Assembly: GCA_965222075.1 (NCBI GenBank)
Contig: OZ244937.1
Span: forward strand, 4,320,001-4,384,000
Origin: Candidatus Latescibacterota bacterium
GTDB lineage: Bacteria; Latescibacterota; UBA2968; GCA-2709665
Reading direction: 5' to 3'
DNA length: 64,000 nt
Position numbers and translations under genes: made by a program. Numbering within the stretch: position 1 is the stretch's first letter; each line of letters opens with the position of its first letter. The notes below the pieces were generated by a model. It was not told the origin of the DNA and did not search any database. It worked only from the letters and a program-made list of their open reading frames with translations. Shown here one piece after another: positions 39,128 to 63,770 of the stretch.

Positions 39128-39808
39128 TTATTCCTCCACCACGTAGTCAAACAGGAGCAGACAGGCCGTGACGAAGAGGACCGCAAACGCAGCGCCGAGT
39201 TTGAGCCAGTTTGCGATTGCCGAGAGGGGCTCGCCCGCCAGCACGGCCCGAAAGGATTCGACGGCTGCGAGGAGGGCGGGGACGAGTATGGGGAGGGTGA
39301 GCATGGGCAGGAGCGCCTCTTTGAGCCGGGTGTTGATGGACATGGCGGCAAAGAGGGTACCCACGGCCGCGAATCCAACCGTGCCCAGGAAGAGCGGCAG
39401 CAGTAGCCGGGGCAGGTGCTCCCAGACGGCGATGTTGAGGAAGACGACGAGCAGGGGAAGGATCAGGGCCTCCACAACGGCCATGGTGAGCAGGTTGGCC
39501 AGGGCCTTGCCCAGGTAGATCGCCCCTCGGTCGGCCGGGGAGAGGAGCAGACCCATGAGACAGTCGTTTTCTCGCTCCATCGTAAAGGAGCGGGTGAGAC
39601 CGAGCAGCCCGGCGAAGATGACGGCGATCCAGAAGATGCCGGGGGCCGCGGACTGCATGGCGGCCGAGCCGGGCTTGAGGGCGAAGTTGAAGACAAGCAC
39701 CACCAGAAAGGCGAAGAAGCACATGGCAGACAGGCGCTCTTTGGTGCGGACTTCGGTCTTCAGGTCTTTCCAGAGAACGGCGGCGACTTGGTAGAGGAAG
39801 AGAGACAT
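39128..39808 (-). CDS. ccmB: Heme exporter protein CcmB
   Basis: KDL..E.R, APGIFW, RSF..E.EN..L.GL, LLP.L..P. Confidence 0.92.
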   Translation of the reverse strand: MSLFLYQVAAVLWKDLKTEVRTKERLSAMCFFAFLVVLVFNFALKPGSAAMQSAAPGIFWIAVIFAGLLGLTRSFTMERENDCLMGLLLSPADRGAIYLGKALANLLTMAVVEALILPLLVVFLNIAVWEHLPRLLLPLFLGTVGFAAVGTLFAAMSINTRLKEALLPMLTLPILVPALLAAVESFRAVLAGEPLSAIANWLKLGAAFAVLFVTACLLLFDYVVEE

Positions 39809-39875
39809 GGCGTTATAGATTGAGAAAATTTGTGAAATTCGGCTCTGTGGAAAACGCTTGGGATTGCGGATCACC

Positions 39876-48918: not shown

Positions 48919-50151
48919 TCAATCCCTCACACAGTCCTCCGGTTGGATTTGACCGAGACGGTCGATGACGTCTTTGGGCTGGATGCGGTTTTTGAAGAAG
49001 AAGACATGGCCGGGGATGTCTTTGAAGTCGCCTTCCTGCACGTTGAGATCGCGGGAGACGGCGATGACGAGGTCTCTCCGGTCCGCGCGGCGGAGTTTGT
49101 CCAGCTTGCGGCGGAGGTAGTCGGGGTGCCAGAAGCCGACGATTTCTAAGAGGGCGGTGCGGCCGTCGGGGTGGTGGAAGGCAAAGTCGGGGATGAAGAC
49201 GGTGTCTTTGAGGTTGACAATTTCGGTTTCGCGCTCTAAGACCCAGTCGGTTTTCGCCTTTTCAAAGCGGCCTGCGAAGGTCTCTTCTAAGAGCGAGTCG
49301 TAGACGGTCTGGTCTTTGTAGTGGGAGACGAGGGTGTGGTTTTCGTCTAAGACGAACAGCCCCTTCCGGCCGTCGGTAAGGGCGATTTCGGCTTCCATTT
49401 TCCAGCGGATACACAAGAGCAGGGCCGGGAGGAAGACGGCCATTTTGATGCCGTATTTCTGGGAGAGGCGGAACATGCTCACCGGGCCGTCCAAGACGAT
49501 TTCGTAGCCGGCGTCCCGGTCGCCTCTGATGTCGTGGATGAGGCGGAAGAATTTGATGAATTTGAAGAGCTGCTTGTAGCGGACCGGGAGGTTGCGGTGG
49601 ACGGAGAGACGCATGCGGGCGCAGCGGTAGAACATGGCCTGGGCCAGGGCGACGTTGTAGCGGTTGAGGAGCCAGTCGGGGGTGGGAGGATCGAAGACGT
49701 CAAAGACGTGGTTGTCGGCCAGGTCGGCGTAGAGGCTGCCGGCGACTTCATCGACCGAGACCTGGTGCTGGAGGGCAATTTGGTCCAGGATGTGGGCCCG
49801 GGTGACGGGGTAGATGAGATCGGGTTCGCGGACGACGGGGTGATTTTCACGGGCGAGGACGAAGACCTGCGCGCGTAGCTCGACGGGATCGATGAGGCTG
49901 GCGATGCGAAACTCGCAGCGGTCGTCTTCAAGGAGCTTGGCCAAGCCGCGCTGAATGCGGTAGTCGGTGGCTTCACCGGCCCGGGCGTCCAACGCGGCGT
50001 GGAGTTCGCGCCGCGTTTTGTTCCGGTGGGATTTAAAGATGTCGATGAGGTCCTGCGCGAGGTCGATCATCCGATCGGAATCGGCGTCGACGTAGCGGGG
50101 GTTGATGTAAGGTCCGCGGGTGCGGGTGAGAAGAAGGTCGGAGGTGAGCAT
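48919..50151 (-). CDS. DUF790 family nuclease (Bax1-like)
   Basis: MLTSDLL, LYADL, RYNVALAQ, LDGP.S.F, YDSLLE..F, FIPDF.F, EIVGFW.P.YL. Confidence 0.92.
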   Translation of the reverse strand: MLTSDLLLTRTRGPYINPRYVDADSDRMIDLAQDLIDIFKSHRNKTRRELHAALDARAGEATDYRIQRGLAKLLEDDRCEFRIASLIDPVELRAQVFVLARENHPVVREPDLIYPVTRAHILDQIALQHQVSVDEVAGSLYADLADNHVFDVFDPPTPDWLLNRYNVALAQAMFYRCARMRLSVHRNLPVRYKQLFKFIKFFRLIHDIRGDRDAGYEIVLDGPVSMFRLSQKYGIKMAVFLPALLLCIRWKMEAEIALTDGRKGLFVLDENHTLVSHYKDQTVYDSLLEETFAGRFEKAKTDWVLERETEIVNLKDTVFIPDFAFHHPDGRTALLEIVGFWHPDYLRRKLDKLRRADRRDLVIAVSRDLNVQEGDFKDIPGHVFFFKNRIQPKDVIDRLGQIQPEDCVRD

Positions 50152-50175
50152 GGCGTTTTTTGAAATTTTTCAATT

Positions 50176-50290
50176 TGGCCCTTTGGAAGACCGTACCGGC
50201 ATTACCCCGGGGACACCGGAGGGCTTCGAGTTAGCTTCGGTGCACCTATCCTCCACGTTCACGGGCGGAGCAAGTTTCATCTCGAAAAAC
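50176..50290 (+). ncRNA. Candidate structured RNA/DNA element, copy A
   Basis: Two adjacent stems with covariation against copy B (58181-58295); conserved loop CCTATCCTCCAC. Confidence 0.5.
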
Positions 50291-50381
50291 CGTTGCAGGG
50301 CCAGAAAACCCTTCGGTTCAACGCATCCCCTCCTTCTCCCCTTCTCCCACGTGCGGAAGAAGGGGTTGGGGAATGAGGGAC

Positions 50382-51371
50382 TTATCCCGAAAACCCCAGT
50401 TCCACCCCATCTTCAACGTCCACGGTAACGCGCAAAACGCCGGGCCTTAACAAGGTTGCGGGGCGTGATTTACCGTTTACACTGACCACCGGGTTCCGGC
50501 ACCAGGGGGCAGGAACCTCAGTGTCGAGGGTGAGGGTGCGGCAGGTGACGCGGTCGGACAGGCCGTTGAGGGTGAGTCGGTAGCGCTTTTCTTCGGGTGT
50601 ATCGGCGAGGGTTTCGATTTGGGTGTGTCGGCGGGTGAGGTGATAGAAGAGGGCCTCTTCGGGTACGGCGCACCAGACGTCGCCGCCTTCGGAAAGGACC
50701 GTTTCAAACCGTCTGCGGAGCTGGGCCTCGGAGCAGTCTTTGCTGGGGTGGACCGGCTCTTCTAAGGGGCAGTGGCAGTAGTCGATGATCCAGCCGCCGT
50801 CCTCCTGGGCGTGGCGGATGTTCCGGTAAGGGTCGAACTCGCTGTAGAAGGGCTCGTAGTAGTGGTCGTGGAGGGCGGTGCGGTTGAGCCAGAAGAGTTC
50901 CTCGCCGGGGCGGTTGAGGGCGTCGGTGAGGCTCATGGCGCCCACGTAGCCGTATTCCCGGCAGGCGGCTAAGATGTGGCCGGCCATGTTGGTATTGTTG
51001 CCGGGAGAGCAGTAGAGGTCCACGGGGCCGTCGATGGCCTCCTCTAAGACCTCCCTGGCCTGGCGCAGTTCGCGGTCGACCATGTCGGGGGCGATGTTCT
51101 GGTGGCTCCACGAGTGGTTGCCCACACCCCAGCCCCGGGCGATGAGGTCCCCCATCTCTTCCCCGTTCATGTGCCGGAATCCGTTATAGCTGGAGTTGCC
51201 GATGTTCCGGACCTCTCCGATGTGCCCGGCAACGGCCTCCACGTGGCCGGGGATGCCGTATTCCTCGTGGATGGGGACCGCGAATTTGTGCAGCTCGATG
51301 AGCGCCTCGTCGTAGGTGATGGAGTAGACCCAGCGTTTGCCGTGTTTCCAGTCGCAGACGGTGAGGGGCAT
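50382..51371 (-). CDS. Polysaccharide deacetylase (NodB) family protein
   Basis: SITYDE, GWGVGNHSWSH, EL..A. Confidence 0.8.
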   Translation of the reverse strand: MPLTVCDWKHGKRWVYSITYDEALIELHKFAVPIHEEYGIPGHVEAVAGHIGEVRNIGNSSYNGFRHMNGEEMGDLIARGWGVGNHSWSHQNIAPDMVDRELRQAREVLEEAIDGPVDLYCSPGNNTNMAGHILAACREYGYVGAMSLTDALNRPGEELFWLNRTALHDHYYEPFYSEFDPYRNIRHAQEDGGWIIDYCHCPLEEPVHPSKDCSEAQLRRRFETVLSEGGDVWCAVPEEALFYHLTRRHTQIETLADTPEEKRYRLTLNGLSDRVTCRTLTLDTEVPAPWCRNPVVSVNGKSRPATLLRPGVLRVTVDVEDGVELGFSG

Positions 51372-51410
51372 GGTATGGTCCTTTTGTCAGATGTTAGGGG
51401 CGATCCCCGG

Positions 51411-52181
51411 TTATACGACACCTTTGACGGCCGTCATAAAATTGTTGAAGGTGGTGCTGTAGCCCAGCTTCCATTCGAAGATGTGCACCCCGTAGCGGGT
51501 GGCCAGGCGCTCGTCAAAGGTGTCGGGCCGCTCCACGCCCACGGTTCCATCGCGTATGAGGATGCAGCGGTGGCCCCGCCCGAGCATGGCGGCCGCGCCG
51601 CCTTCGGAATTAAGCACACACATGTCGGCGGCAAAGCCGGTGTAGATGAGGGTTTCGATATTGTGGGTCTTGAGGTATTCGTCTAAAGTATCGGTGTAGA
51701 AGACCAGGGGTTCGTCGCCGACGGGGGAGACGATTTGGGCGCGTTTCATCTTTGCCAGCGGGGAACGGACCATATAGTCCGGTCCGTGTGCGCGGTCCAG
51801 CATCTCTTTCTGGCGGCTGGTGGGCCTCCAGGTTTTAGACTCGCCGCGTCGGGAAGGGATGTGGGGGTACTGCTCGTCCATCCAGTCGGTTTCGACATGA
51901 ACGATAGGCATCTCGATTTCACGGGCGGCGTCCATGGCCGGGCGGATGATTTCACCCATGATGCGACAGGCTTCGGCCGTGGCCTGGGGCCAGCCCATGT
52001 CCACGCAGTAGTCCATGTCCAGAGGGGGGCCGTCCGGGCAGCCGATGTTCCAGCAGTGCATGCCCACAAGCGCGGTCTGCGCCACGGGCAGGTCGAAGGT
52101 GACCTGCTCGTAGCCGGGGCTGTCGATGGGACGGGCGCGGTAGTAGCGGGCGTTGAACTTGAGCGTTGGGGAACCGGACAT
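51411..52181 (-). CDS. Isochorismatase / cysteine hydrolase family protein
   Basis: QTALV, AAR....PIVH, IETLIYTGFAADMCV, LIRD.T. Confidence 0.8.
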   Translation of the reverse strand: MSGSPTLKFNARYYRARPIDSPGYEQVTFDLPVAQTALVGMHCWNIGCPDGPPLDMDYCVDMGWPQATAEACRIMGEIIRPAMDAAREIEMPIVHVETDWMDEQYPHIPSRRGESKTWRPTSRQKEMLDRAHGPDYMVRSPLAKMKRAQIVSPVGDEPLVFYTDTLDEYLKTHNIETLIYTGFAADMCVLNSEGGAAAMLGRGHRCILIRDGTVGVERPDTFDERLATRYGVHIFEWKLGYSTTFNNFMTAVKGVV

Positions 52182-52230
52182 CGTTGCGAGAGCTCCTCTA
52201 TGCGAGAGAGACGTTCTTTGTTTGTCGTTT

Positions 52231-54099
52231 TCAGCGCATCGGTCCTCTACCGTCCATGACGATTTCGACCGGGTCGGAAAGGAGGATGAGGTCCTCGATG
52301 TCGAACTGTTTGAGGAGTCCGAAGCAGAAGAGGACAGGGTTCTGGATGTAGTCTACGGGCCAGTCGATGAGCCTGCGGAGGGTGTCGGGGACGTTCACGC
52401 GCAGGCTTCCGAGGCCTTGGGGGTGGAGGGCCGCGGCGCAAAGGGCGATGAGGCCGGTAGAGAGACCCTGGGCGACAAAGTCGACCGCATCCGTTTCGGC
52501 GTAGGAGCGGATCCAGTTCAGGAGGGCGAGGAGCTGGGCGGTGCAGATGCCAAGGGGGCGGTCGCCTGCGGAGGCGACGCATTCCATGAAGAGGTAATGG
52601 TAGGCCCCGCCGGCGATGATCTGTTCGCCGAAGGCAAAGAGGTCGGCGGTGAATACCCGTTTGCCTGCATTCAGGGCGTTCTGCACTGCTGCGCTACTGT
52701 TTGCACGTCCTTCATCGGAGAGGATGAGCAGGGACGATCTCGATCTGCCCGCCCGGAACTCGGTGACGGGGACGTTCCAGCGGTCCATTTTCAGGATATG
52801 GTGTTTGATCTGTACACCGCCTGCAAGCTGAGGTTTGCGGGCGATTTTTGATTTTACGGAATATTTCGACGAGAGTCGCAGGACCTCCTTCAGGCGTTTT
52901 CGGTCCTGCGTTTTTGTTTTGGGCGAGGACCGCTTGACGGGCAGGTTGTGTGCAAGACCGCGGGCGATGGAGAGGAAGGTGGGGTTGTCGGGCGGGAGGC
53001 CGACGTTGAGTTCCCACTCGGAGAGGATCTCGCCGTCGCAGGGGATGTCTTCGGTCGGAATGTCCAGGCCCCAGGCGTTGTTAAGGAATTTGTAGAGCTG
53101 CTCCCGGATGTCTTTTTCGTAGTTGTGCGTGCCGGGGTCTTCGTTGGCGTAGAAGCCGATGCGGTCTTCCACGTCGAGACATTTGTAGACTTTCCGGGCG
53201 GGGATGTAGAGGCAGGGACGCATGAATTCCGGGCGGAAGATGCTGTCGTTGACGCTGTGGATAAGCAGGGAGGGCCGGGGCGCGAACATGGCGGTGAGGG
53301 TGTCGAAGTCGGCCACGGTGCAGAGGTCAACCGGGGTCTGCTCTAAGTCCCCGTGGTCCTGCCAGCGTAGCGTCGCCCGGTGCCAGATGGGGGAGTGGCC
53401 GGACACGGGGAGGATCGCTCCGATGCGTTCGTCTATGGCGGAGAGCACGGCGGTCTGCCAGCCGCCGCCGGAGAGGCCGGTCATGGCCACGCGCTCGGGG
53501 TCTGCATGTTTGTGCGCGGAGAGGACGTCTAAGCCGCGTTTCATGGCCAGGTACATAGGGCCCACGCCGGCAACACCGCACAAGTCGATGTGCGCCTGCT
53601 GCATGTGAAAGGCCGAGCCCTGCAATTCACCCATACCGATGAATTCGGTGTTGAGGGCAAGCATGCCCCGTTTGGCGAGGTTGATGCAGCGGGCCTGCTT
53701 ATAGTCCATGGCCTTGCCACCCCGATGGTGACCGTTCGGGTTCAGGACGGCGGGGACTTTGCCCTTGAGGTTGGTGGGCTCATACAAAAGCGCGGGGATC
53801 CACATGCCCGGGTAGCCTTCATAGCGGAGCTTCCGGATGCGGTAGCCTCTGCCCGTTTCTATAACGCCGTGCCACTGGACGACGGGCGGGGCGCTGTTGA
53901 TGCATGGGTGGTGGCCGAGCAGGTAGACTTTTTCCAGAAGGTCTTTGCGGATTTTCGCGGTCCGCTTCTGCCATTCGGCAGGCGTTCGAGGGGTTTTGAG
54001 CCGGGGGAGTTTCTCCCGGTAATAGTCCATCATGGTGCGGGTGTGCCGCTTGCCGAGGAGTTTGCGCGAGAGGGCGTGAGCGATTTGTTTAGGTGACAT
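52231..54099 (-). CDS. Alpha/beta hydrolase (acetyl xylan esterase-like, two-domain)
   Basis: IPALLYEP, LNPNGH, GLSGGG, FAPRP, GTHNY. Confidence 0.85.
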   Translation of the reverse strand: MSPKQIAHALSRKLLGKRHTRTMMDYYREKLPRLKTPRTPAEWQKRTAKIRKDLLEKVYLLGHHPCINSAPPVVQWHGVIETGRGYRIRKLRYEGYPGMWIPALLYEPTNLKGKVPAVLNPNGHHRGGKAMDYKQARCINLAKRGMLALNTEFIGMGELQGSAFHMQQAHIDLCGVAGVGPMYLAMKRGLDVLSAHKHADPERVAMTGLSGGGWQTAVLSAIDERIGAILPVSGHSPIWHRATLRWQDHGDLEQTPVDLCTVADFDTLTAMFAPRPSLLIHSVNDSIFRPEFMRPCLYIPARKVYKCLDVEDRIGFYANEDPGTHNYEKDIREQLYKFLNNAWGLDIPTEDIPCDGEILSEWELNVGLPPDNPTFLSIARGLAHNLPVKRSSPKTKTQDRKRLKEVLRLSSKYSVKSKIARKPQLAGGVQIKHHILKMDRWNVPVTEFRAGRSRSSLLILSDEGRANSSAAVQNALNAGKRVFTADLFAFGEQIIAGGAYHYLFMECVASAGDRPLGICTAQLLALLNWIRSYAETDAVDFVAQGLSTGLIALCAAALHPQGLGSLRVNVPDTLRRLIDWPVDYIQNPVLFCFGLLKQFDIEDLILLSDPVEIVMDGRGPMR

Positions 54100-54133
54100 T
54101 TTTTAGCTCCTTGCTGGTGCGATAGTGGCCGGG

Positions 54134-54287
54134 ACCACCCGACCATAGCTCGATATATTCGTCGATTCGCCTCCACCCTCGCAAGGTTGAAGTACCCCAC
54201 ACAGAAGTCGGCACGATCGGACAGCGCAAGCCTTTCCCGAAGTGCCGGGAGGCGTGGCCGGTCAATGTTGTCGAAAATTTGCGGCAT
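54134..54287 (-). pseudogene. Frameshifted N-terminal relic of a PLD-domain SNF2-type helicase
   Basis: MPQIFDNID..L...L..SDRADFCVGYFNL, then after one extra base RGWRRIDEYIELWSGG. Confidence 0.75.
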
Positions 54288-54298
54288 AGCAAAGGCCC

Positions 54299-55354
54299 TC
54301 AGTTCAGGGTATAGGTTTCGTAGGGGCGTTCGCAGGGGTTGCCCCGGCTGACGTGCATGAGGCCGTCCTCCGGTTCGATGATGACCGAGAACGTGGTAGC
54401 CCAGTAGCCGGTGGTCGGGTGGTCGTTGGGGTGTCGGCAGATGGAGGTGGGGTGGCCCTCGTGGTCGCACAGGGCGGCCTTGAGGTTTTTGAGGGCCAGG
54501 GGCCGTTCCATTTCTCCGAAGAGCTTTTGGATTCTAATTTTGCGCGGGCCGGACTGGATAAGTTCGGAGAAGTCGTCGTTGATGGGCAGCAGGTCCGGGT
54601 GCTCACAGTGGTTGGCGTGGGTGACCAGGCCTGTGCCGTCGCCCTGGAGGACATGGACGTCGTCTACGGTGACTTCCAGATCGGCAGGCCCCTGGGGCGT
54701 GGCCAGGATGATGTTGGCGGGGATCGCACGAGTGGCCCGGCGCACGGCCTGCACAGCGTCGGAGAGGGAATCGGTTTCGTAGATGGCGCGCACCGTGAAG
54801 TAGTGCGGGACCCCCAGGGGGCGGCTGGGAGCCGGCAGGGTGTTCAGGCAGAGGCCGATTCCGGCGCTGTTGAGGCCGATGTAGGCGATGAGGCCGGCCT
54901 GGGTGATGTTCATAAGGGTGGGTTTGCCCGCAGGGCGGCGGGTGAGCACGACGGTAAAGGGGTCCAGGCCCGGGTCGTTGTCCCAGTTCTGGCCCACGAC
55001 CGCCCGCTGGCCTGCGGGTGAGGTGATCGAAAAGGAGGTGCAGCCGGCGTCCCCGTCGGGCCGGAGCTGGTTGCGCACCTGGAGGAGCATCAGGTCTTCA
55101 AGCAGGATGCCGGAACTTTCGGCCATGCCGCGCAGCTCATCGAGCATGTGCGGGGCGTAGGACTCGACGTAGGAAAGGCTGCTGCGGGCGACGGACAGGG
55201 CGTTCTCTTGAGAGACGGGCATGGTCTTGTTGACGCGGTTGAGGGCGATTTCCACAAATCCCCGGACCTCCTCGCGGGCAGCTTCACCGATCTGGCGACC
55301 CATCTCGAAGGGGGCGCCGCTGACTTCGATTTCACGGTAGTGGGTGTCTGACAT
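54299..55354 (-). CDS. C45 family peptidase (Ntn hydrolase / acyltransferase)
   Basis: G..FEMG.QIG, GCTS nucleophile, GQNWD, GLNSAG, THANH, SICRH. Confidence 0.92.
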   Translation of the reverse strand: MSDTHYREIEVSGAPFEMGRQIGEAAREEVRGFVEIALNRVNKTMPVSQENALSVARSSLSYVESYAPHMLDELRGMAESSGILLEDLMLLQVRNQLRPDGDAGCTSFSITSPAGQRAVVGQNWDNDPGLDPFTVVLTRRPAGKPTLMNITQAGLIAYIGLNSAGIGLCLNTLPAPSRPLGVPHYFTVRAIYETDSLSDAVQAVRRATRAIPANIILATPQGPADLEVTVDDVHVLQGDGTGLVTHANHCEHPDLLPINDDFSELIQSGPRKIRIQKLFGEMERPLALKNLKAALCDHEGHPTSICRHPNDHPTTGYWATTFSVIIEPEDGLMHVSRGNPCERPYETYTLN

Positions 55355-55424
55355 TTGTATCTCCTGGAGTAATGGGGCACGCCGTGCCCCTACATTCTTC
55401 CCTCGTCGGGAAGGGAGAGGGGGG

Positions 55425-56672
55425 TTAGGTCCGATTTTTATCCGCCACCTCCCGCACAATCTGCGCTGCCAGATCGCAGTGTTCCGGTTCATACTTCTCG
55501 CAGAAAGAAGACCAGCGGATGAAGGTTTCCAAGAAGTCCCTGGCGGTCGGACAGGTATCGGCGCTGTAGCGGTATTTCCGGGAGGCCGGAGGCTGTGAAT
55601 AGGGGTAGACCTCCTTTTGCGCCTTTTCCGACAGGAAGGGGAGGGCGGCGGGCATGAGGTAGTACCTGCCGGTGCCCGCGCCGGGGATGCCGGCGTCGGC
55701 GACCTGTTTGGCGAATGCGTCCGCGTTGCAGGTGAAGGCGTCGGGGGCGATGCTGAAGCCGGCCATCCAGCAGGAGTAGACGTCCATGTAATCCGGAATG
55801 GGCAGGGGGGTAATGCCCGGGACCTCGGCGAGTTTTTCCGAGAGGAGGCGGACCATGCGGTCGCGCCGGGCGATGTTGGGCCGGATGATTTCGAGCTGGG
55901 CCAGGGTGATGGCGGCGGTGGAGAGGGTCATGCGGTGGGCGTAGCCGTTGACCGCGTGGATGCGTCCGAAGCCTTCCCTCATCTGGCCGCCTCTGCTCTG
56001 GCCGACGAAGCGGATGCGTTCATTCAGTTCGTCGTCGTTTGTAACCACGCAGCCGCCCACATCCGAGCCCAGGGTTTTTTCGGCGTCGAAGGAGAAGGCA
56101 CCCGCAGTGCTGAGAGAACCGGCGAGGCGGCCCCTGTACTCGCCGAAGACGGCCTGGCAGGTGTCTTCGTAGACGATGAAGCCGTGTTTGTCGGCTAAGG
56201 CGTTGATGGGGTCCATGTCGCAGAGGGTGCCGGTTTTGTGGACGACCAGAACCGCGCGGGTGCGGTCGGTGATGCAGGGTTCGACCGTTTCTGCGCTGAG
56301 GATGAGGGTGCCGGGTTCGGTGTCTGCGAAAACGGGGATGTAGTTCTCCCTGATCAGGCCCTGCACGGTGCCGTAGTCGGTGACCGGGCTGACGATGATT
56401 TCATCGCCCGGTTCGAAGTCGAAGGCCGCCGCGAGCACGGCTAAGGCCGGGGTGCAGCCGGGCGTGGCGATGCAGTGTTTGACGCCCATCTCACCGGCGA
56501 AGGTCTCTTCGAAGCGGCGGACCATATTGCTGGTCAGGCCAGAGTCCACGACCTCCTGGAGGTATTTCAGGCAGTTGGGACCCATCGTGCGCGGAAAGGG
56601 CTGAGGCAGGCTGCCTTTGAGTTCTTCAGATGCCTCTGCGCCGTATTTTGCGCGTTCGACTCTGGTGGCCAT
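55425..56672 (-). CDS. DegT/DnrJ/EryC1/StrS family PLP aminotransferase
   Basis: EPGDEII, PVFAD, VH..G..CDM, EDTCQA, FSF..EK. Confidence 0.9.
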   Translation of the reverse strand: MATRVERAKYGAEASEELKGSLPQPFPRTMGPNCLKYLQEVVDSGLTSNMVRRFEETFAGEMGVKHCIATPGCTPALAVLAAAFDFEPGDEIIVSPVTDYGTVQGLIRENYIPVFADTEPGTLILSAETVEPCITDRTRAVLVVHKTGTLCDMDPINALADKHGFIVYEDTCQAVFGEYRGRLAGSLSTAGAFSFDAEKTLGSDVGGCVVTNDDELNERIRFVGQSRGGQMREGFGRIHAVNGYAHRMTLSTAAITLAQLEIIRPNIARRDRMVRLLSEKLAEVPGITPLPIPDYMDVYSCWMAGFSIAPDAFTCNADAFAKQVADAGIPGAGTGRYYLMPAALPFLSEKAQKEVYPYSQPPASRKYRYSADTCPTARDFLETFIRWSSFCEKYEPEHCDLAAQIVREVADKNRT

Positions 56673-56709
56673 GCAATTTTCCTTTCTAAAATCCGGATTC
56701 AGGCCCTAA

Positions 56710-56757
56710 AAATTTCGGATCTCGGATTGAAGCGCTTTTACTCCGCAATCCGCAATT
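56710..56757. repeat. ATTTCGGA/TCCGCAAT heptamer-hairpin repeat (inverted copy at 1-56)
   Basis: AAATTTCGGATCTCGGATTGAA..CTTT..TCCGCAATCCGCAATT matches the reverse complement of positions 1-56. Confidence 0.75.
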
Positions 56758-56761
56758 GTGC

Positions 56762-57307
56762 TCAATCGTCGGGCCACCCCGGCCAGGGGCAGTGGTTTCT
56801 GATGTAGCGGCCGTTTTGAAATTCGGTGAAAAAATGGGAGATGAGCGGGTGTGAGACCTGCTCTCCAGAATCGTCTTCCAAAAGGCTGGTCTGGGCGGCA
56901 TAGGTGATCTGGTTGGAGCCGTGGACCAGGACGTGGTACCAGGGCTGGCTGCGGTCGGGCTGGCTCCGGTTGGACAGGTACCAGGCATCGTCCGCCTGGC
57001 AGGTCGGGTCGAAGCCGACCACAACGCCCCGGTAGTCATACCGGCTGTGCCAGACGAGTTGGCCCGGTTCAAAGCGGGGTTCGACACCCACCGGCTCTCC
57101 GGGAGACGGACCGCTACCCTGACGCGCCTTGAGCAGGTCCCGGACCTTCTGCATCTGGTGTTCGTCTGGGGGATCGGGAAGCCGGGCGAGTTCCGCTTCC
57201 AGAGACGGGCCGAAGGCGGCTAAGGCCTCTGAGACGGCTTCTTGGACGGTTTCCGATTCGTCGTCGAGCAGGATCAAGAGGTGGGGGAGTTGCTTGGGAT
57301 CGGGCAT
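56762..57307 (-). CDS. HspQ/YccV-like protein with an extra N-terminal helical domain
   Basis: F.PGQLV.H.RY.YRGVVV..DP, QPWYHVLV, TYAAQ.SL, HPLI..FF. Confidence 0.88.
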   Translation of the reverse strand: MPDPKQLPHLLILLDDESETVQEAVSEALAAFGPSLEAELARLPDPPDEHQMQKVRDLLKARQGSGPSPGEPVGVEPRFEPGQLVWHSRYDYRGVVVGFDPTCQADDAWYLSNRSQPDRSQPWYHVLVHGSNQITYAAQTSLLEDDSGEQVSHPLISHFFTEFQNGRYIRNHCPWPGWPDD

Positions 57308-57396
57308 GGGCAGGTTCTCCGGGCTACTCGAACTGTCGCCTGAATTCGGTGAACTGCTGGCGGATTTTAATGTCGTTCAGGATATGGATTACTTTC

Positions 57397-58152
57397 TCAG
57401 GGTTGTTTTTTTAGCTGCCGGTACATGTCACGAGAGAAGATGTGTGGCTGGATATCCCGGTTCTGTCCTTCGACCATGCCCTGCACGAATTCTGCGGTCT
57501 TGCTCACAGCCGCCTCGACAAGCACCTGCCCCTGCTTGGCAGTCGCCTCCAGCGGCTGTTTGTCTTCCTGGTCCTGCAGGGCGTCGTGCCGGATATAGTC
57601 GGGAAACAGGACCAGGGCCATGGCGGTCTCGTACTCCTGCGCGTGGCCGGGAACTCTTCCCTTGCAGTGCTGCTCGGCGATCTCCCGGCTGAGGTCCCAG
57701 TAGGAGTGGAACTGGACGTTGACCTCGGGGTCGGCCGATTGAAAGTAGAGCTGCCACTGCCGGAGGATGCCGTTCATCGGGGCTTCATTTCCCCCATGGC
57801 CGTTCAGGATGAGGACGTTTTTGACGCCGTGCCGCACCAGGCTTTCCACCGCATCAAAGAGCACGGCCAGCCACGACCCCGGCTTGGCGGTGATCGTGCC
57901 CTTGTGGACCATGTGATGCTCGGAGATACCGACGGCCATCGGCACGCTCACAACAACCTGGGGGTAGAGGCGTTTGGCGGCCTCACAGGCGACGTAGGTG
58001 GCCGCGGCGATGTCGTACTCCATCGCCAGGTGTTCCAAGTGCTGCTCGTTGCTCCCGGTGGGGATAATCGCAGCCAGGAATTTCCCCACTTCCAGGGCTT
58101 CCCTGAACTCACGCCGCGTCAGTTTACCCAGCATCACTTCCTGGTCAGGCAT
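57397..58152 (-). CDS. Creatininase family amidohydrolase
   Basis: PTGSNEQH, GISEHH, LNGHGGN, GHA.E.ET. Confidence 0.92.
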   Translation of the reverse strand: MPDQEVMLGKLTRREFREALEVGKFLAAIIPTGSNEQHLEHLAMEYDIAAATYVACEAAKRLYPQVVVSVPMAVGISEHHMVHKGTITAKPGSWLAVLFDAVESLVRHGVKNVLILNGHGGNEAPMNGILRQWQLYFQSADPEVNVQFHSYWDLSREIAEQHCKGRVPGHAQEYETAMALVLFPDYIRHDALQDQEDKQPLEATAKQGQVLVEAAVSKTAEFVQGMVEGQNRDIQPHIFSRDMYRQLKKQP

Positions 58153-58180
58153 GGGGAGTCTCCTTTAAAAATGTTTAAAT

Positions 58181-58295
58181 TTGGCCTTGTGGAAATCCAA
58201 AACGCCGTGTCCCGAAGGTACGCCAGAGGGCTTCGAGTTGGCGACAGTGGCCCTATCCTCCACCGTTCACGGGTGTAGCCGAAAGACTCGAAACA
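58181..58295 (+). ncRNA. Candidate structured RNA/DNA element, copy B
   Basis: Homologous to 50176-50290 (AATTTGGCC..GAGGGCTTCGAGTT..CCTATCCTCCAC..GTTCACGGG..CTCGAAA). Confidence 0.5.
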
Positions 58296-58353
58296 AGACC
58301 AGGAAAGCAACCACCGATGAATCGTGACCGATGAATTGTGACTCGTAGCTGGT

Positions 58354-59649
58354 TTAAACCCCCGCCTTGAGCCGGGCGAAGCTGACACGATCGCTCAGTT
58401 GCATCAGGGCGAAGTAGGTGGTGATTTCGGTTCGGGAAGTGTCAAGGCTGGCCACGGCGTTTCGGTACCAGGTCCAGGTTTCGTCGTCTCGGGGACCCAG
58501 TTTGCAGATGGCGTCGTTGAAGTCCGCGATTTCGGAATCGGATTTCTCGTCCTGTTTTTCGATCCAGGCGAGGATGTCGGCATCCGTGGGACAGTCCCGG
58601 AGGGTATCTGTAAAGGCATCCACGGAGATGCCGAGGAATCTGAGGATGTAGCGGTCGATGCCGGAGTCACTGCCGTACCAGAAGTCTCCCAAAGTGTCGC
58701 TTAAGAAAGCCCGGCCCTTGTCAATCATACGGGCCAGGCCGGCGATGCCGGCGGCAGAGGTGTCATAGGGGCTTCGAGGCAGATGGCGCGTGAGGTCGAC
58801 GGTGTTGAAGCTCTTTTCGTCGTCTAAGTCGAGCAGGTCGAACCATGTGGTGACGTCGGTGCGGCCCGGGGCGGCGTTGTTGAGGGCCTTTTCAAAGATG
58901 GCGTGCTGTTCGTCGTTTTCGGGGCCTTTGCCGGAGATCCGGACGTTGAAGACGGCGATCTCGCCGGGGGTGCGGGAACTGTTCTCCTGCACCCAGGCGG
59001 TCAGTTCGAGGTCGTTGGGGTTGCTGTAGGCGGCCTCCTGGTAGTCGTCGGCAGAGATGCCTAAGAACTCGGTAATGGCCTCGTCTATGGGGCAGTTGTA
59101 GATGTATTCTCCCAGGCGGCCGGCTTTGTCGGCCCGGGCCTTGTCGGCCATGCGCGCCAGACCGTAGACGCCGGCCACGTCCCTGCAATACGGGGTGCGG
59201 GGCGCCCGCTGCGTGAGGTCGGCATCTCTGAAGCTGGCCCAGTCGTCTAATTCGATGGACTGGAAGACGGTTTTGATGTCGGTGCGTTTGGGGGCGTATT
59301 TTTCGAGCCGGTCCCGGAGGCGCTGCTTTCCGGCCTCGTCATCCGGTTCGCGGCCCAGGTGATGACGGTTGAAGGCCTCAACCTCCTCGTCGGTCCTGTC
59401 CGAGATTTTCCGCACCCATCGGCCGAGGGTCTCGTCATCGTAGCGGTCGGCAGCGTCGGCGAAGTCGGCGGCGGAGATGCCGAGAAAGTCTAAGAGGATT
59501 TTGTCCAGGCCGGAGTCTTCGCCGTAGACGAATTCACCTAAGGTTTCCTCATTGTAGGCACAGGCCTTGTCGGCCATACGGGCGAGGTTGACAATACCGG
59601 CGATGCAGGTGTTGGACGGCTGGCGGGGAGGTTGTTTCGTGAGGTCCAT
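58354..59649 (-). CDS. Triple tandem DUF5069-domain protein
   Basis: Three repeats of DLT...PR.P....G...LARM.DK......LG...Y....D.....FLGIS. Confidence 0.85.
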   Translation of the reverse strand: MDLTKQPPRQPSNTCIAGIVNLARMADKACAYNEETLGEFVYGEDSGLDKILLDFLGISAADFADAADRYDDETLGRWVRKISDRTDEEVEAFNRHHLGREPDDEAGKQRLRDRLEKYAPKRTDIKTVFQSIELDDWASFRDADLTQRAPRTPYCRDVAGVYGLARMADKARADKAGRLGEYIYNCPIDEAITEFLGISADDYQEAAYSNPNDLELTAWVQENSSRTPGEIAVFNVRISGKGPENDEQHAIFEKALNNAAPGRTDVTTWFDLLDLDDEKSFNTVDLTRHLPRSPYDTSAAGIAGLARMIDKGRAFLSDTLGDFWYGSDSGIDRYILRFLGISVDAFTDTLRDCPTDADILAWIEKQDEKSDSEIADFNDAICKLGPRDDETWTWYRNAVASLDTSRTEITTYFALMQLSDRVSFARLKAGV

Positions 59650-63691: not shown

Positions 63692-63770
63692 GGGGTAGTA
63701 GCTCAGTTTTGGTTAGAGTGTCGGCCTGTCACGCCGAAGGTCGCGGGTTCGAGCCCCGTCTACCCCGCCA
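63692..63770 (+). tRNA. tRNA-Asp (GTC)
   Basis: Acceptor stem GGGGTAG/CTACCCC, D-arm GCTCAG..GGTTAGAGT, anticodon loop CTGTCAC, GGTTCGAGCCC T-arm, encoded CCA. Confidence 0.97.

What the first reader, a model, noticed from the sequence alone, without database searches (positions are those of the whole stretch)
50176..58295. Two copies of an unrecognised two-hairpin element with covarying stems and an invariant anti-SD-like loop
Seen: copies at about 50176-50290 and 58181-58295 share AATTTGGCC..GAGGGCTTCGAGTT..GTG..CCTATCCTCCAC(C)GTTCACGGG..CTCGAAA. Stem 1 is GCCCTTTGG/CCGGAGGGC versus GCCTTGTGG/CCAGAGGGC around a variable interior. Stem 2 is TTCGAG/CTCGAA, enclosing GCTTCG/CGGAGC versus GGCGACA/TGTAGCC (different sequence, pairing kept), then GTG/CAC closing the conserved loop. 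G-U pairs favour the plus strand. Each copy lies about 25-30 nt upstream of, and antisense to, a minus-strand start (Bax1, creatininase). The loop is anti-Shine-Dalgarno-like (CCTCC) on plus and GGAGGA (CsrA-site-like) on minus. I cannot match it to any riboswitch, ribozyme or IS end I know. Inference: a new cis-regulatory or small RNA family, or the guide/end RNA of a non-autonomous mobile element with one variable and one constant loop. This is the best candidate for an undescribed system here.
Basis: partly seen in the sequence, partly recalled or inferred. Interest (0 to 1): 0.7.

Follow-up and report, generated by a model that had tools for sequence, protein, structure and literature searches.

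The report
Mosaic intergenic repeat family, not riboswitch
The two look-alike stretches are members of a many-copy, mix-and-match non-coding repeat that sits between genes in a few related Latescibacterota genomes, an ordinary kind of bacterial dispersed repeat rather than a newly found two-hairpin regulatory RNA, though its conserved blocks are kept by selection.

Summary
The two copies are real: 79% identical, each 25-29 nt from a minus-strand start codon. They are not a pair. nhmmer finds 29 copies of their 5' half in this 5.36-Mb genome, plus 5 weaker fragments, one of them in the window at 39818-39855. A covariance model finds 55 copies in a sister-genus genome, but matches in only 5 of 22 family genomes.

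The element is modular:
- an A/T-rich palindromic block;
- a shared 45-nt module;
- a tail that pairs with the 5' end as a closing stem or terminal inverted repeat.

Several changes are uncompensated, folding energies equal those of shuffles, and RNAalifold gives -2.4 kcal/mol.

Copies lie in every orientation relative to neighbouring genes and come and go between relatives. There is no Rfam match and no linked recombinase.

Family-conserved columns evolve about three times slower than neighbouring synonymous sites, so some cis function is likely.

This scan noted similar mosaic repeats in other Latescibacterota genomes.

The parts
50157..50310 (+). Copy A, long form: A/T block, shared module, optional 'type-1' module and tail
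   Evidence: Covariance model R1 matches 50169-50310 at 137.4 bits. nhmmer matches it at E 4.5e-43. Sequence.
50174..50182 (+). Copy A, 5' strand of the closing stem / terminal inverted repeat (P1)
   Evidence: It pairs with 50297-50305 over 9 bp, one of them G-U. The stem is kept in the MFE and centroid folds of both strands.
50297..50305 (+). Copy A, 3' strand of P1, in the tail
50216..50289 (+). Copy A, optional 'type-1' module.
   Evidence: Alignments A2 and A3. At the orthologous locus this module is missing in a same-genus genome and in a related strain.
58163..58308 (+). Copy B, long form
   Evidence: R1 matches 58175-58308 at 103.9 bits. Sequence. A positional orthologue sits beside the creatininase gene of a sister genus.
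58180..58190 (+). Copy B, 5' strand of P1
   Evidence: It pairs with 58293-58303 over 11 positions: 2 G-U and 1 C-A mismatch.
58293..58303 (+). Copy B, 3' strand of P1
39818..39855 (+). Third, partial family member: the A/T block and the start of the shared module only. It abuts a minus-strand start codon (CAT at 39806-39808).
   Evidence: nhmmer hit at genome position 4359825. Sequence. Exact pattern match at 39836-39850.
48919..50151 (-). DUF790 gene whose start abuts the A/T end of copy A
   Evidence: Pfam PF05626, E 7.8e-124. ORF.
57397..58152 (-). Creatininase-family gene whose start abuts the A/T end of copy B
   Evidence: Pfam PF02633, E 2e-40. ORF.
58311..58334 (-). Terminator-like hairpin between the upstream gene (stop at 58354) and copy B. 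It is not part of the repeat.
   Evidence: Consensus scan. One such site was found against 0.6 expected, so this is weak.

Best explanation
The two stretches are long-form copies of a lineage-restricted, non-coding, modular dispersed repeat that occupies intergenic spacers. It resembles ERIC, Correia and other MITE-type elements and the mosaic BIME/RIME repeats.

Shown:
- A full copy has four parts: an A/T-rich, roughly palindromic block; a shared 45-nt module; an optional 75-nt module; and a tail.
- The tail is complementary to the first 9-12 nt after the A/T block, so the ends form a terminal inverted repeat or closing stem.
- Short copies (68 nt between the stem halves) lack the optional module. 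Other copies carry a different 3' extension.
- Copies are gained, lost, truncated and swapped between related genomes.

Inferred:
- The family spread as a non-autonomous element, or by recombination between copies. No partner enzyme was identified.
- Retained copies are kept because, as part of operon transcripts or as DNA, they act in cis on the neighbouring genes.
- The most likely action is as a hairpin that sets mRNA processing or stability. Where the A/T end faces a start codon, the copy also supplies an A/U-rich leader upstream of the ribosome-binding site.

The classification is well supported. The cis mechanism is a best guess, at about one chance in three.
For: Copy number and modularity:
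- 29 hits to the shared 5' module at E<1e-4 in the genome.
- R1 matches at E<=1e-3: 23 in G000, 55 in G004, 4 in G001, 3 in G005 and 2 in G008.
- Long and short forms align over the same ends.
- One copy is a hybrid of the two 3' modules (L098).

Terminal stem:
- The core is 76% paired in 38 short copies, against 28-54% when the partner is slid.
- It is 75% paired in 38 long copies.
- A second tail variant pairs in a shifted register.
- The stem is kept in divergent copies L062, L129, L130 and L131, while the inner helix is lost in L130 and L131.
- It is the only helix in the centroid folds.

Turnover:
- The orthologue of copy A in G001 and in a related strain lacks the optional module and tail.
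- G004 has no element at the DUF790 locus.
- G001 carries a different inverted-repeat insert at the creatininase locus, and G002 has an unrelated spacer there.
- At least 9 of 29 G000 copies share flanking genes with a G004 copy. One such pair has a different 3' module in each genome.

Orientation of the 38 long copies relative to neighbouring genes: 15 antisense within an operon, 8 sense within an operon, 6 convergent, 3 divergent and 6 unclear.

Distribution:
- 5 of 22 family genomes carry it, with 0 of 15 in genus g2.
- One record in 185,579 species genomes matches an exact pattern.
- Three metagenome stretches match.

In-situ constraint:
- Orthologous pairs differ at 18 of 179 family-conserved columns against 33 of 87 variable ones (Fisher 2e-7).
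- For short copies the figures are 18 of 191 against 35 of 154 (9e-4).
- For copy B, 6 of 57 conserved columns differ, against 31 of 94 four-fold sites of the adjacent gene.

Known MITEs act through promoters, IHF sites and RNase cleavage at their inverted repeats (PMC10969869, passages read).
Against: - No target-site duplication was seen, and conserved sequence runs beyond the inverted repeat on both sides. A cut-and-paste MITE mechanism is therefore not shown.
- No autonomous partner was found in this genome. Only three transposase families were looked for.
- A third of the copies are positionally conserved between genera, which is more stable than typical young MITEs.
- Transcription of any copy is not shown. 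The only RNA runs gave short contigs that cannot show strand or ends.
- The constraint on about 57 columns is more than a simple stability hairpin needs.
- Copy B was replaced in G001 without loss of the gene, so any cis role is dispensable.
- Gene conversion between copies, rather than selection, could contribute to the low divergence of conserved columns.
Confidence: 0.6

Rival explanations
1. A family of small regulatory RNAs, or a cis-regulatory leader, transcribed from the plus (model) strand. An invariant CCUCC-containing loop would pair with Shine-Dalgarno sequences.
For: - The CCTATCCTCC block is among the best-conserved columns.
- The conserved blocks are under in-situ constraint.
- The consensus has G-U pairs on this strand in the outer part of P1 and in a 5-bp hairpin, GUGCY/GGUAC.
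- There is no Rfam match, so it would be new.
Against: - No sigma-70-like promoter or intrinsic terminator frames either copy. The tRNA genes of this genome have clear TTGACA-N17-TAnAnT promoters.
- Copies lie in all orientations relative to genes. Only 11 of 38 long copies have a same-strand gene start downstream.
- The consensus fold is -2.43 kcal/mol.
- Folding z-scores run from -0.8 to +0.3.
Related sequences can give such values without any structure.
- Subfamily changes are uncompensated.
- The inner helix is lost in divergent homologues.
- Wobble and mismatch counts do not pick a strand.
Confidence: 0.1
2. A mobile promoter or 5'-leader cassette. Read on the opposite strand, the element would deliver a promoter and an A/U-rich leader to the gene whose start codon abuts the A/T block.
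For: - In G000, 23 of 29 copies have an ORF of 60 aa or more starting within 32 nt on the opposite strand. With coding-potential-scored gene calls the figure is 19 of 29.
- Five of six partial copies also abut a start codon.
- The abutted genes are functionally unrelated.
- A terminator-like hairpin lies upstream of copy B.
- Correia and other MITEs carry promoters (PMC10969869).
Against: - No sigma-70-like promoter was found on either strand.
- Among the 38 long copies (29 from G004), the A/T end faces a same-strand stop codon in 15 copies and an opposite-strand start in 18, with no call in 5.
- The same genes lack the element in relatives.
- Tight spacing to genes on both sides is expected for anything that fills a short spacer.
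Confidence: 0.12
3. A DNA-level site family: binding platforms for an abundant DNA-binding or nucleoid-organising protein. The bendable A/T palindrome and the conserved GC-rich boxes would be read as double-stranded DNA.
For: - Function appears independent of orientation.
- Equal T-G and C-A counts at variable stem positions fit a strand-neutral inverted repeat.
- Many conserved positions lack pairing partners.
- 28 of 29 G000 copies lie between 2.27 and 5.34 Mb, around the skew-inferred origin at about 4.2 Mb (dnaA at 4.04 Mb) and away from the terminus at about 1.36 Mb.
- REP/BIME and Correia elements bind gyrase or IHF (recalled; IHF in PMC10969869).
Against: - No candidate protein was identified.
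- About 90 conserved positions is long for a binding site.
- In G004 only 35 of 55 copies lie in the half of the chromosome nearer dnaA (my count).
- The regional bias may simply reflect where long spacers exist.
Confidence: 0.13
4. The guide or end RNA of an IS110-type (bridge RNA) or IS200/605-type (omega RNA) element that has lost its recombinase.
For: - One constant and one variable region in the two copies.
- The copies are dispersed.
Against: - PF01548 (IS110 DEDD) and PF07282 (TnpB zinc ribbon) have no match in the genome, while the controls ring.
- The two Y1_Tnp matches have unrelated flanks.
- None of the 25 abutting genes scanned is a recombinase.
Confidence: 0.03

Closest known systems
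ERIC / IRU (enterobacterial repetitive intergenic consensus) elements
   Same: - Non-coding, imperfectly palindromic, about 70-150 nt.
- Tens to hundreds of intergenic copies.
- Occur in either orientation relative to transcription.
- Have short and long forms that differ by internal segments.
- Copy number differs strongly between related taxa.
- Can alter the stability of the host mRNA.

Sources: copy numbers and the RNase E effect come from PMC10969869 (passages read). The palindrome and insertion variants are recalled from Hulton 1991 and Wilson & Sharp 2006, which I did not read.
   Different: - No sequence relationship was tested or expected, since the phylum differs.
- Here a third of the copies are positionally conserved between genera.
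- Conserved columns are under measurable in-situ constraint.
- The conserved sequence extends beyond the inverted repeat.
Correia (CREE/NEMIS) and other prokaryotic MITEs
   Same: - Small non-autonomous repeats with terminal inverted repeats that form an RNA hairpin when co-transcribed.
- Often lie just upstream of genes.
- Can carry promoters or IHF sites.
- Are polymorphic between strains (PMC10969869).
   Different: - No target-site duplication was seen.
- No sigma-70-like promoter.
- No parent IS was identified.
BIME (REP mosaics, E. coli) and RIME (Rhizobium) intergenic mosaic elements
   Same: - Built from a small set of modules combined in different ways.
- Strictly extragenic.
- Hairpin-forming.

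These points are recalled. Reviews PMC3184786 and PMC2229807 were seen only as a search listing and abstracts.
   Different: - The modules here are longer (45-75 nt) than REP units.
- No RAYT-type Y1 transposase is flanked by them.
- No GTAG or CGTC head was examined.
Mosaic intergenic repeats noted earlier in this scan in other Latescibacterota genomes (e1-3065524, e1-1532576, e1-781941, e1-1114884)
   Same: Many-copy, modular, hairpin-bearing intergenic repeats of Latescibacterota that come and go between related genomes and match no described RNA family (notes listed; unchecked AI notes).
   Different: A look-up by sequence with copy B found no look-alike stretch in other windows. These are therefore probably different families of the same kind.

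Membership tests
MITE (miniature inverted-repeat transposable element) | Small, non-coding, many dispersed copies | tested here: met
   Copies span 68-143 nt between the stem halves, with single-base indels that rule out coding. There are 29 copies in G000 and 55 in G004.
MITE (miniature inverted-repeat transposable element) | Terminal inverted repeats at the element's ends | tested here: inconclusive
   A 9-12 nt imperfect inverted repeat (P1) encloses the short and long forms. Conserved sequence continues outside it on both sides: the A/T block, the GAAAAGC tail and the 3' extension of short copies.
MITE (miniature inverted-repeat transposable element) | Target-site duplication flanking each copy | tested here: not met
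   By inspection, no copy-specific direct repeat flanks the copies. The filled and empty sites compared are too diverged to define exact junctions.
MITE (miniature inverted-repeat transposable element) | Presence/absence polymorphism between related genomes | tested here: met
MITE (miniature inverted-repeat transposable element) | A parent IS with the same ends in the genome or in relatives | tested here: inconclusive
   Only Y1_Tnp, the TnpB zinc ribbon and IS110 DEDD were searched, and only in G000. The flanks of the Y1 genes are unrelated. G004 was not searched for transposases.
REP/BIME with RAYT | Short (20-40 nt) palindromic units, with a single-copy Y1 (RAYT) gene flanked by them | tested here: not met
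   The two Y1_Tnp matches (one intact, one with a stop) are flanked by other hairpins. nhmmer finds no significant match to the family in their flanks (best E 0.073 in +-700 nt).
Any Rfam RNA family (riboswitch, ribozyme, sRNA, omega/HEARO-type RNA) | Match to a curated covariance model | tested here: not met
   At gathering thresholds, the window gives only a tRNA and 20 loci with copies give nothing. At E up to 10, copy A's region gives only miRNA chance hits outside the element, and copy B's region gives none.
Structured regulatory RNA (generic) | Helices supported by compensatory changes and a stable consensus fold | tested here: not met
   The consensus energy is -2.43 kcal/mol. The percentage paired is 76.8-80.9%, against 76.0-79.6% in shuffles. 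Folding z-scores are near 0. Only the closing stem persists in divergent copies.
IS110 bridge RNA / IS200-605 omega RNA | Adjacent DEDD recombinase or TnpB/IscB gene | tested here: not met
   PF01548 and PF07282 have no match in the genome. None of the neighbours scanned is a recombinase.
Integron attC site | Conserved core sites at the two ends, and uniform orientation behind cassette ORFs | tested here: not met
   Orientation relative to genes is mixed. By inspection the ends do not fit the attC core pattern; the pattern is recalled and no model was run.

The most novel reading that the evidence does not exclude
The repeat is not selfish DNA. It would be a host-domesticated module with about 57 selectively constrained positions that works independently of orientation at some 30-55 intergenic sites per genome. 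Two forms of this reading remain open:
- an undescribed protein-binding or chromosome-organising site family, largely excluded from the terminus-proximal 40% of the chromosome;
- an RNA element recognised mainly by sequence. The optional module would bring a second partner (CCAGAGGGC) that competes with the tail for the same 5' strand, so the element could act as a switch.
Probability: 0.2. Interest if true: 0.6.

Novelty: new member of a known kind. Interest (0 to 1): 0.3.

Why it matters
It removes a false lead. What looked like the best candidate for a new riboswitch-like or guide RNA in this window is one of many copies of a dispersed repeat.

It also adds a documented case in an uncultured, sponge-associated Latescibacterota lineage of a modular intergenic repeat whose conserved blocks evolve about three times slower than neighbouring synonymous sites. 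Such repeats may be recruited for gene-proximal functions.

Annotators of these genomes should mask or label the family, so that it is not repeatedly reported as a novel RNA.

Tried and rejected
- **Bacteroidota-type promoter.** I asked whether the conserved AAATTTG box could be a -7 promoter element (motif recalled). I rejected this because the upstream regions of the 47 tRNA genes show classic TTGACA-N17-TAnAnT promoters.
- **Sigma-54 and ECF promoters, IHF, attC and nucleoid-occlusion sites.** I compared these only by eye against recalled consensus patterns. Nothing fitted, and these comparisons are not tests.
- **RNA evidence.** Two metatranscriptome runs held 9-12% of the sampled words. 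They gave contigs of 150-450 nt at depth 1-5, among them 58014-58183 and 58206-58466, and none over copy A. Contigs show no strand, ends or level, and DNA carry-over cannot be excluded, so nothing is concluded.
- **Pseudoknot.** Pairing between GUGGAAG of the shared module and CCUCCAC of the optional module shows no compensating changes in the copies where either side varies (my inspection).
- **Hairpin GCAGGC/GCCUGC in short copies.** It is broken without compensation in the GCATG variants.
- **Candidate long-range helix GCUGCC/GGCGGC in the 3' extension of short copies.** Only 51-52% of cells are paired in the best registers, so I left it open.
- **Mutual-information scan of all column pairs of A3.** It was dominated by subfamily signal and yielded no clean helix.
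- **Wobble type against operon direction.** Short copies show a weak trend: same-strand operons G-U 7 and C-A 2, opposite-strand operons 4 and 8. Long copies show none. The numbers are too small and the copies are kin.
- **Orientation relative to replication.** 17 of 29 copies are co-oriented with the leading strand (my count), which is not notable.
- **First gene caller.** It took the longest ORFs and mis-called the window. I replaced it with a hexamer-scored caller. That caller still overran the element with the longest start in 6 of 29 rows.

Full report
**The observation.** The two stretches are present as described. They align at 79% mean column identity over 181 columns. Copy A begins 25 nt from the ATG of a minus-strand DUF790 gene (48919-50151). 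Copy B begins 29 nt from the ATG of a minus-strand creatininase-family gene (57397-58152). Rfam gives nothing for either copy. At gathering thresholds the window yields only a tRNA at 63692-63767. At E up to 10, copy A's region yields only microRNA chance hits that lie outside the element, and copy B's region yields none.

**They are not a pair.** The window's genome is a single 5.36-Mb contig with 59% G+C.
- A profile of the two copies finds seven full-length matches, the two window copies included, and many partial matches to the 5' half.
- A profile of that 5' half finds 34 matches at E<=1, of which 29 are at E<1e-4.
- One weaker, partial copy lies in the window at 39818-39855.
- Twenty loci carrying copies also give no Rfam match.

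**Anatomy, read on the strand of the finding.** A full copy has these parts in order:
- an A/T-rich, roughly palindromic block (consensus near TTGAAAAAATTTCGAAATT);
- a shared module that begins GGCCYTGTGGAAG and ends GTGCTCCGGGTAC;

One G004 copy (L098) is a hybrid of the two 3' modules.

The first 9-12 nt after the A/T block (TTYGGCCYTGTG) are complementary to the tail (TGCARGRCCRGA). This closing stem (P1) encloses 35 nt in short copies and 105-119 nt in long ones. A second tail variant pairs with the same 5' strand in a shifted register.

**Is it a structured RNA with covarying stems?** On 38 long copies aligned to a covariance model (7 from G000, 29 from G004, 1 from G001 and 1 from G005):
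The complementarity therefore lies in the consensus, and covariation adds little. Shuffles reach the covariation score in 6 of 500 trials and the percentage paired in 20 of 500, values that related sequences can reach without any structure.
- The central pair of stem 1 is unpaired in 36 of 38 copies, and the inner stem of hairpin 2 is 64.5% paired.
- A subfamily with CCG for GAG and CAC for GGC shows no compensating change.
- My alternative, P1 plus a 5-bp hairpin, fares no better statistically: 80.9% against 79.6%, with shuffles reaching the covariation score in 82 of 500 trials.
- RNAalifold gives a consensus energy of -2.43 kcal/mol.
- The two window copies fold no better than dinucleotide shuffles on either strand (z = -0.82, +0.09, +0.30, +0.01). 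Only the closing stem survives in the centroid structures.
- In divergent homologues from genus g5 and from three metagenome contigs, the closing stem is kept, with WC replacements such as TT/AA for CC/GG. The outer helix of hairpin 2 is lost in two of these.
- This alignment was fitted to a model containing P1 and that outer helix, so it leans towards them.

**Which strand folds?** The consensus has G-U pairs on the plus (model) strand at the outer end of P1 and in the small hairpin. Transitions at a G-U pair always restore a Watson-Crick pair, so these are not informative. At the variable core positions of P1 in 38 short copies, T-G and C-A cells are equal at 18 each. Sorting copies by the direction of the surrounding operon gives a weak trend in short copies only.

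**Context.** The genes that abut the A/T end in G000 are functionally unrelated. They include DHDPS, amidohydrolases, two sulfatases, aminotransferases, a sigma-54 activator, PhyH, Omp85, HAD and others.
- In G000, 23 of 29 copies have an ORF of 60 aa or more starting within 32 nt on the opposite strand.
- With a hexamer-scored gene caller, the A/T end faces a gene start in 19 of 29 copies and a stop in 10. In 6 rows the called ORF overran the element.
- Over the 38 long copies the arrangements are: antisense within an operon 15, sense within an operon 8, convergent 6, divergent 3 and unclear 6.
- Where a same-strand gene precedes the element, its stop codon is often part of the A/T block.
- The copies essentially fill short spacers, so closeness to start codons is not specific.
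- Neither region holds a sigma-70-like promoter on either strand. The only terminator-like site is a hairpin outside copy B. By contrast, tRNA genes of this genome show textbook promoters.

**Distribution and turnover.**
- BLAST finds the long form in 5 of 41 relatives.
- The covariance model finds the family in 5 of 22 genomes of the family: genera g1, g4 and g5, with 0 of 15 in g2 and 0 of 2 in g3. Counts at E<=1e-3 are 23 in G000, 4 in G001, 55 in G004, 3 in G005 and 2 in G008.
- An exact 33-position pattern occurs in only one record among one genome each of 185,579 species. That record's title names a Candidatus Latescibacterota MAG.
- A 22-position pattern of the shared module occurs in three metagenome stretches. 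Records of, or very near, the window's own genome may be left out of both scans.
- At least 9 of 29 G000 copies have a G004 copy beside orthologous genes (64-95% protein identity). At one such locus, matched by flank DNA only, G000 has the long form and G004 the short form with the other extension.
- The orthologue of copy A in the same-genus genome G001, and in a related strain seen in a DNA run, keeps the 5' half but lacks the optional module and tail.
- Another G001 orthologue keeps the optional module but lacks the 5' half.
- G004 has no element at the DUF790 locus.
- At the creatininase locus, G001 has a different insert bounded by a 16-nt inverted repeat, and G002 has an unrelated spacer.

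**No partner enzyme was found.** PF01548 (IS110) and PF07282 (TnpB zinc ribbon) have no match in the genome, while the control genomes ring. The two Y1 transposase matches are flanked by unrelated hairpins.

**Selection.** Orthologous copies in G000 and G004 have diverged in place.
- Three long pairs differ at 18 of 179 columns that are at least 85% conserved among the other copies, against 33 of 87 columns that are under 60% conserved (Fisher 2e-7).
- Four short pairs differ at 18 of 191 against 35 of 154 (9e-4).
- For copy B, 6 of 57 conserved columns differ, while 31 of 94 four-fold degenerate sites of the adjacent creatininase gene differ.

The blocks conserved across the family are therefore also constrained at resident loci. 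Gene conversion between copies cannot be excluded as a contributor.

**Reading.** The evidence fits a lineage-specific, modular dispersed intergenic repeat of the ERIC, Correia, other MITE-type and BIME/RIME kind. These classes are known to affect neighbouring genes through promoters, IHF sites or RNase cleavage at their inverted repeats (PMC10969869, passages read). Two searches of the held literature returned no paper whose title or abstract describes such a repeat in Latescibacteria.

I commit to the classification at about 0.8. For mechanism, my best guess at about one in three is a cis effect of the co-transcribed closing hairpin and A/U-rich arm on processing, stability or translation of the adjacent cistrons. 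Rival readings keep smaller shares: an sRNA family with an anti-SD loop, a mobile promoter or leader, and a DNA-binding platform.

Earlier notes of this scan describe comparable mosaic repeats in other Latescibacterota genomes. A look-up by sequence found no look-alike of copy B. Those notes also supplied the label 'sponge-associated Latescibacterota' for this genome. One search's record title and the run labels are consistent with that label.

Noticed in passing
L121:2262-2400 (G001), and G000 genome-wide, e.g. C1:2693855-2694019: A second repeat family. The 16-nt motif AGAAGCTGTCTTAAAA occurs 67 times in G000 at up to 2 mismatches. Five occurrences form inverted pairs 165-300 bp apart, which looks MITE-like. 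One such pair lies next to a long-form copy. In G001 such an insert replaces copy B at the creatininase locus.
   Followed up: partly
G000 whole chromosome: 28 of 29 copies lie between 2.27 and 5.34 Mb, around the skew-inferred origin at about 4.2 Mb (dnaA at 4.04 Mb). Only one copy lies in the 2.3 Mb around the skew-inferred terminus at about 1.36 Mb. In G004 only one of the 55 copies lies between 6.61 and 8.08 Mb.
   Followed up: partly
window 58311-58345, and G004 loci L033, L036, L043: A motif of the type ACCACCGATGAAY, repeated in tandem, follows the tail of several copies. On the minus strand it forms the terminator-like hairpin found by the scan.
   Followed up: no
L128:1440-1490 (G004, DUF790 locus): Four tandem copies of the heptamer GCGGAAT occupy the place where G000 has copy A. 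The downstream hairpin CCCCTTCTCCC...GGGAGAAGGGG is conserved in G000, G001 and G004.
   Followed up: no
G000 C1:2071937-2072296 and C1:3018501-3018743: One intact IS200-like Y1 transposase gene (open frame 156 aa) with its own flanking hairpins, and one broken copy with an in-frame TAG.
   Followed up: partly
G000 C1:4141227 and C1:4150341: Two short-form copies 9 kb apart match the shared-module profile with identical scores and read nearly alike over the element. Each lies upstream of a same-strand gene, which points to a recent local duplication.
   Followed up: no
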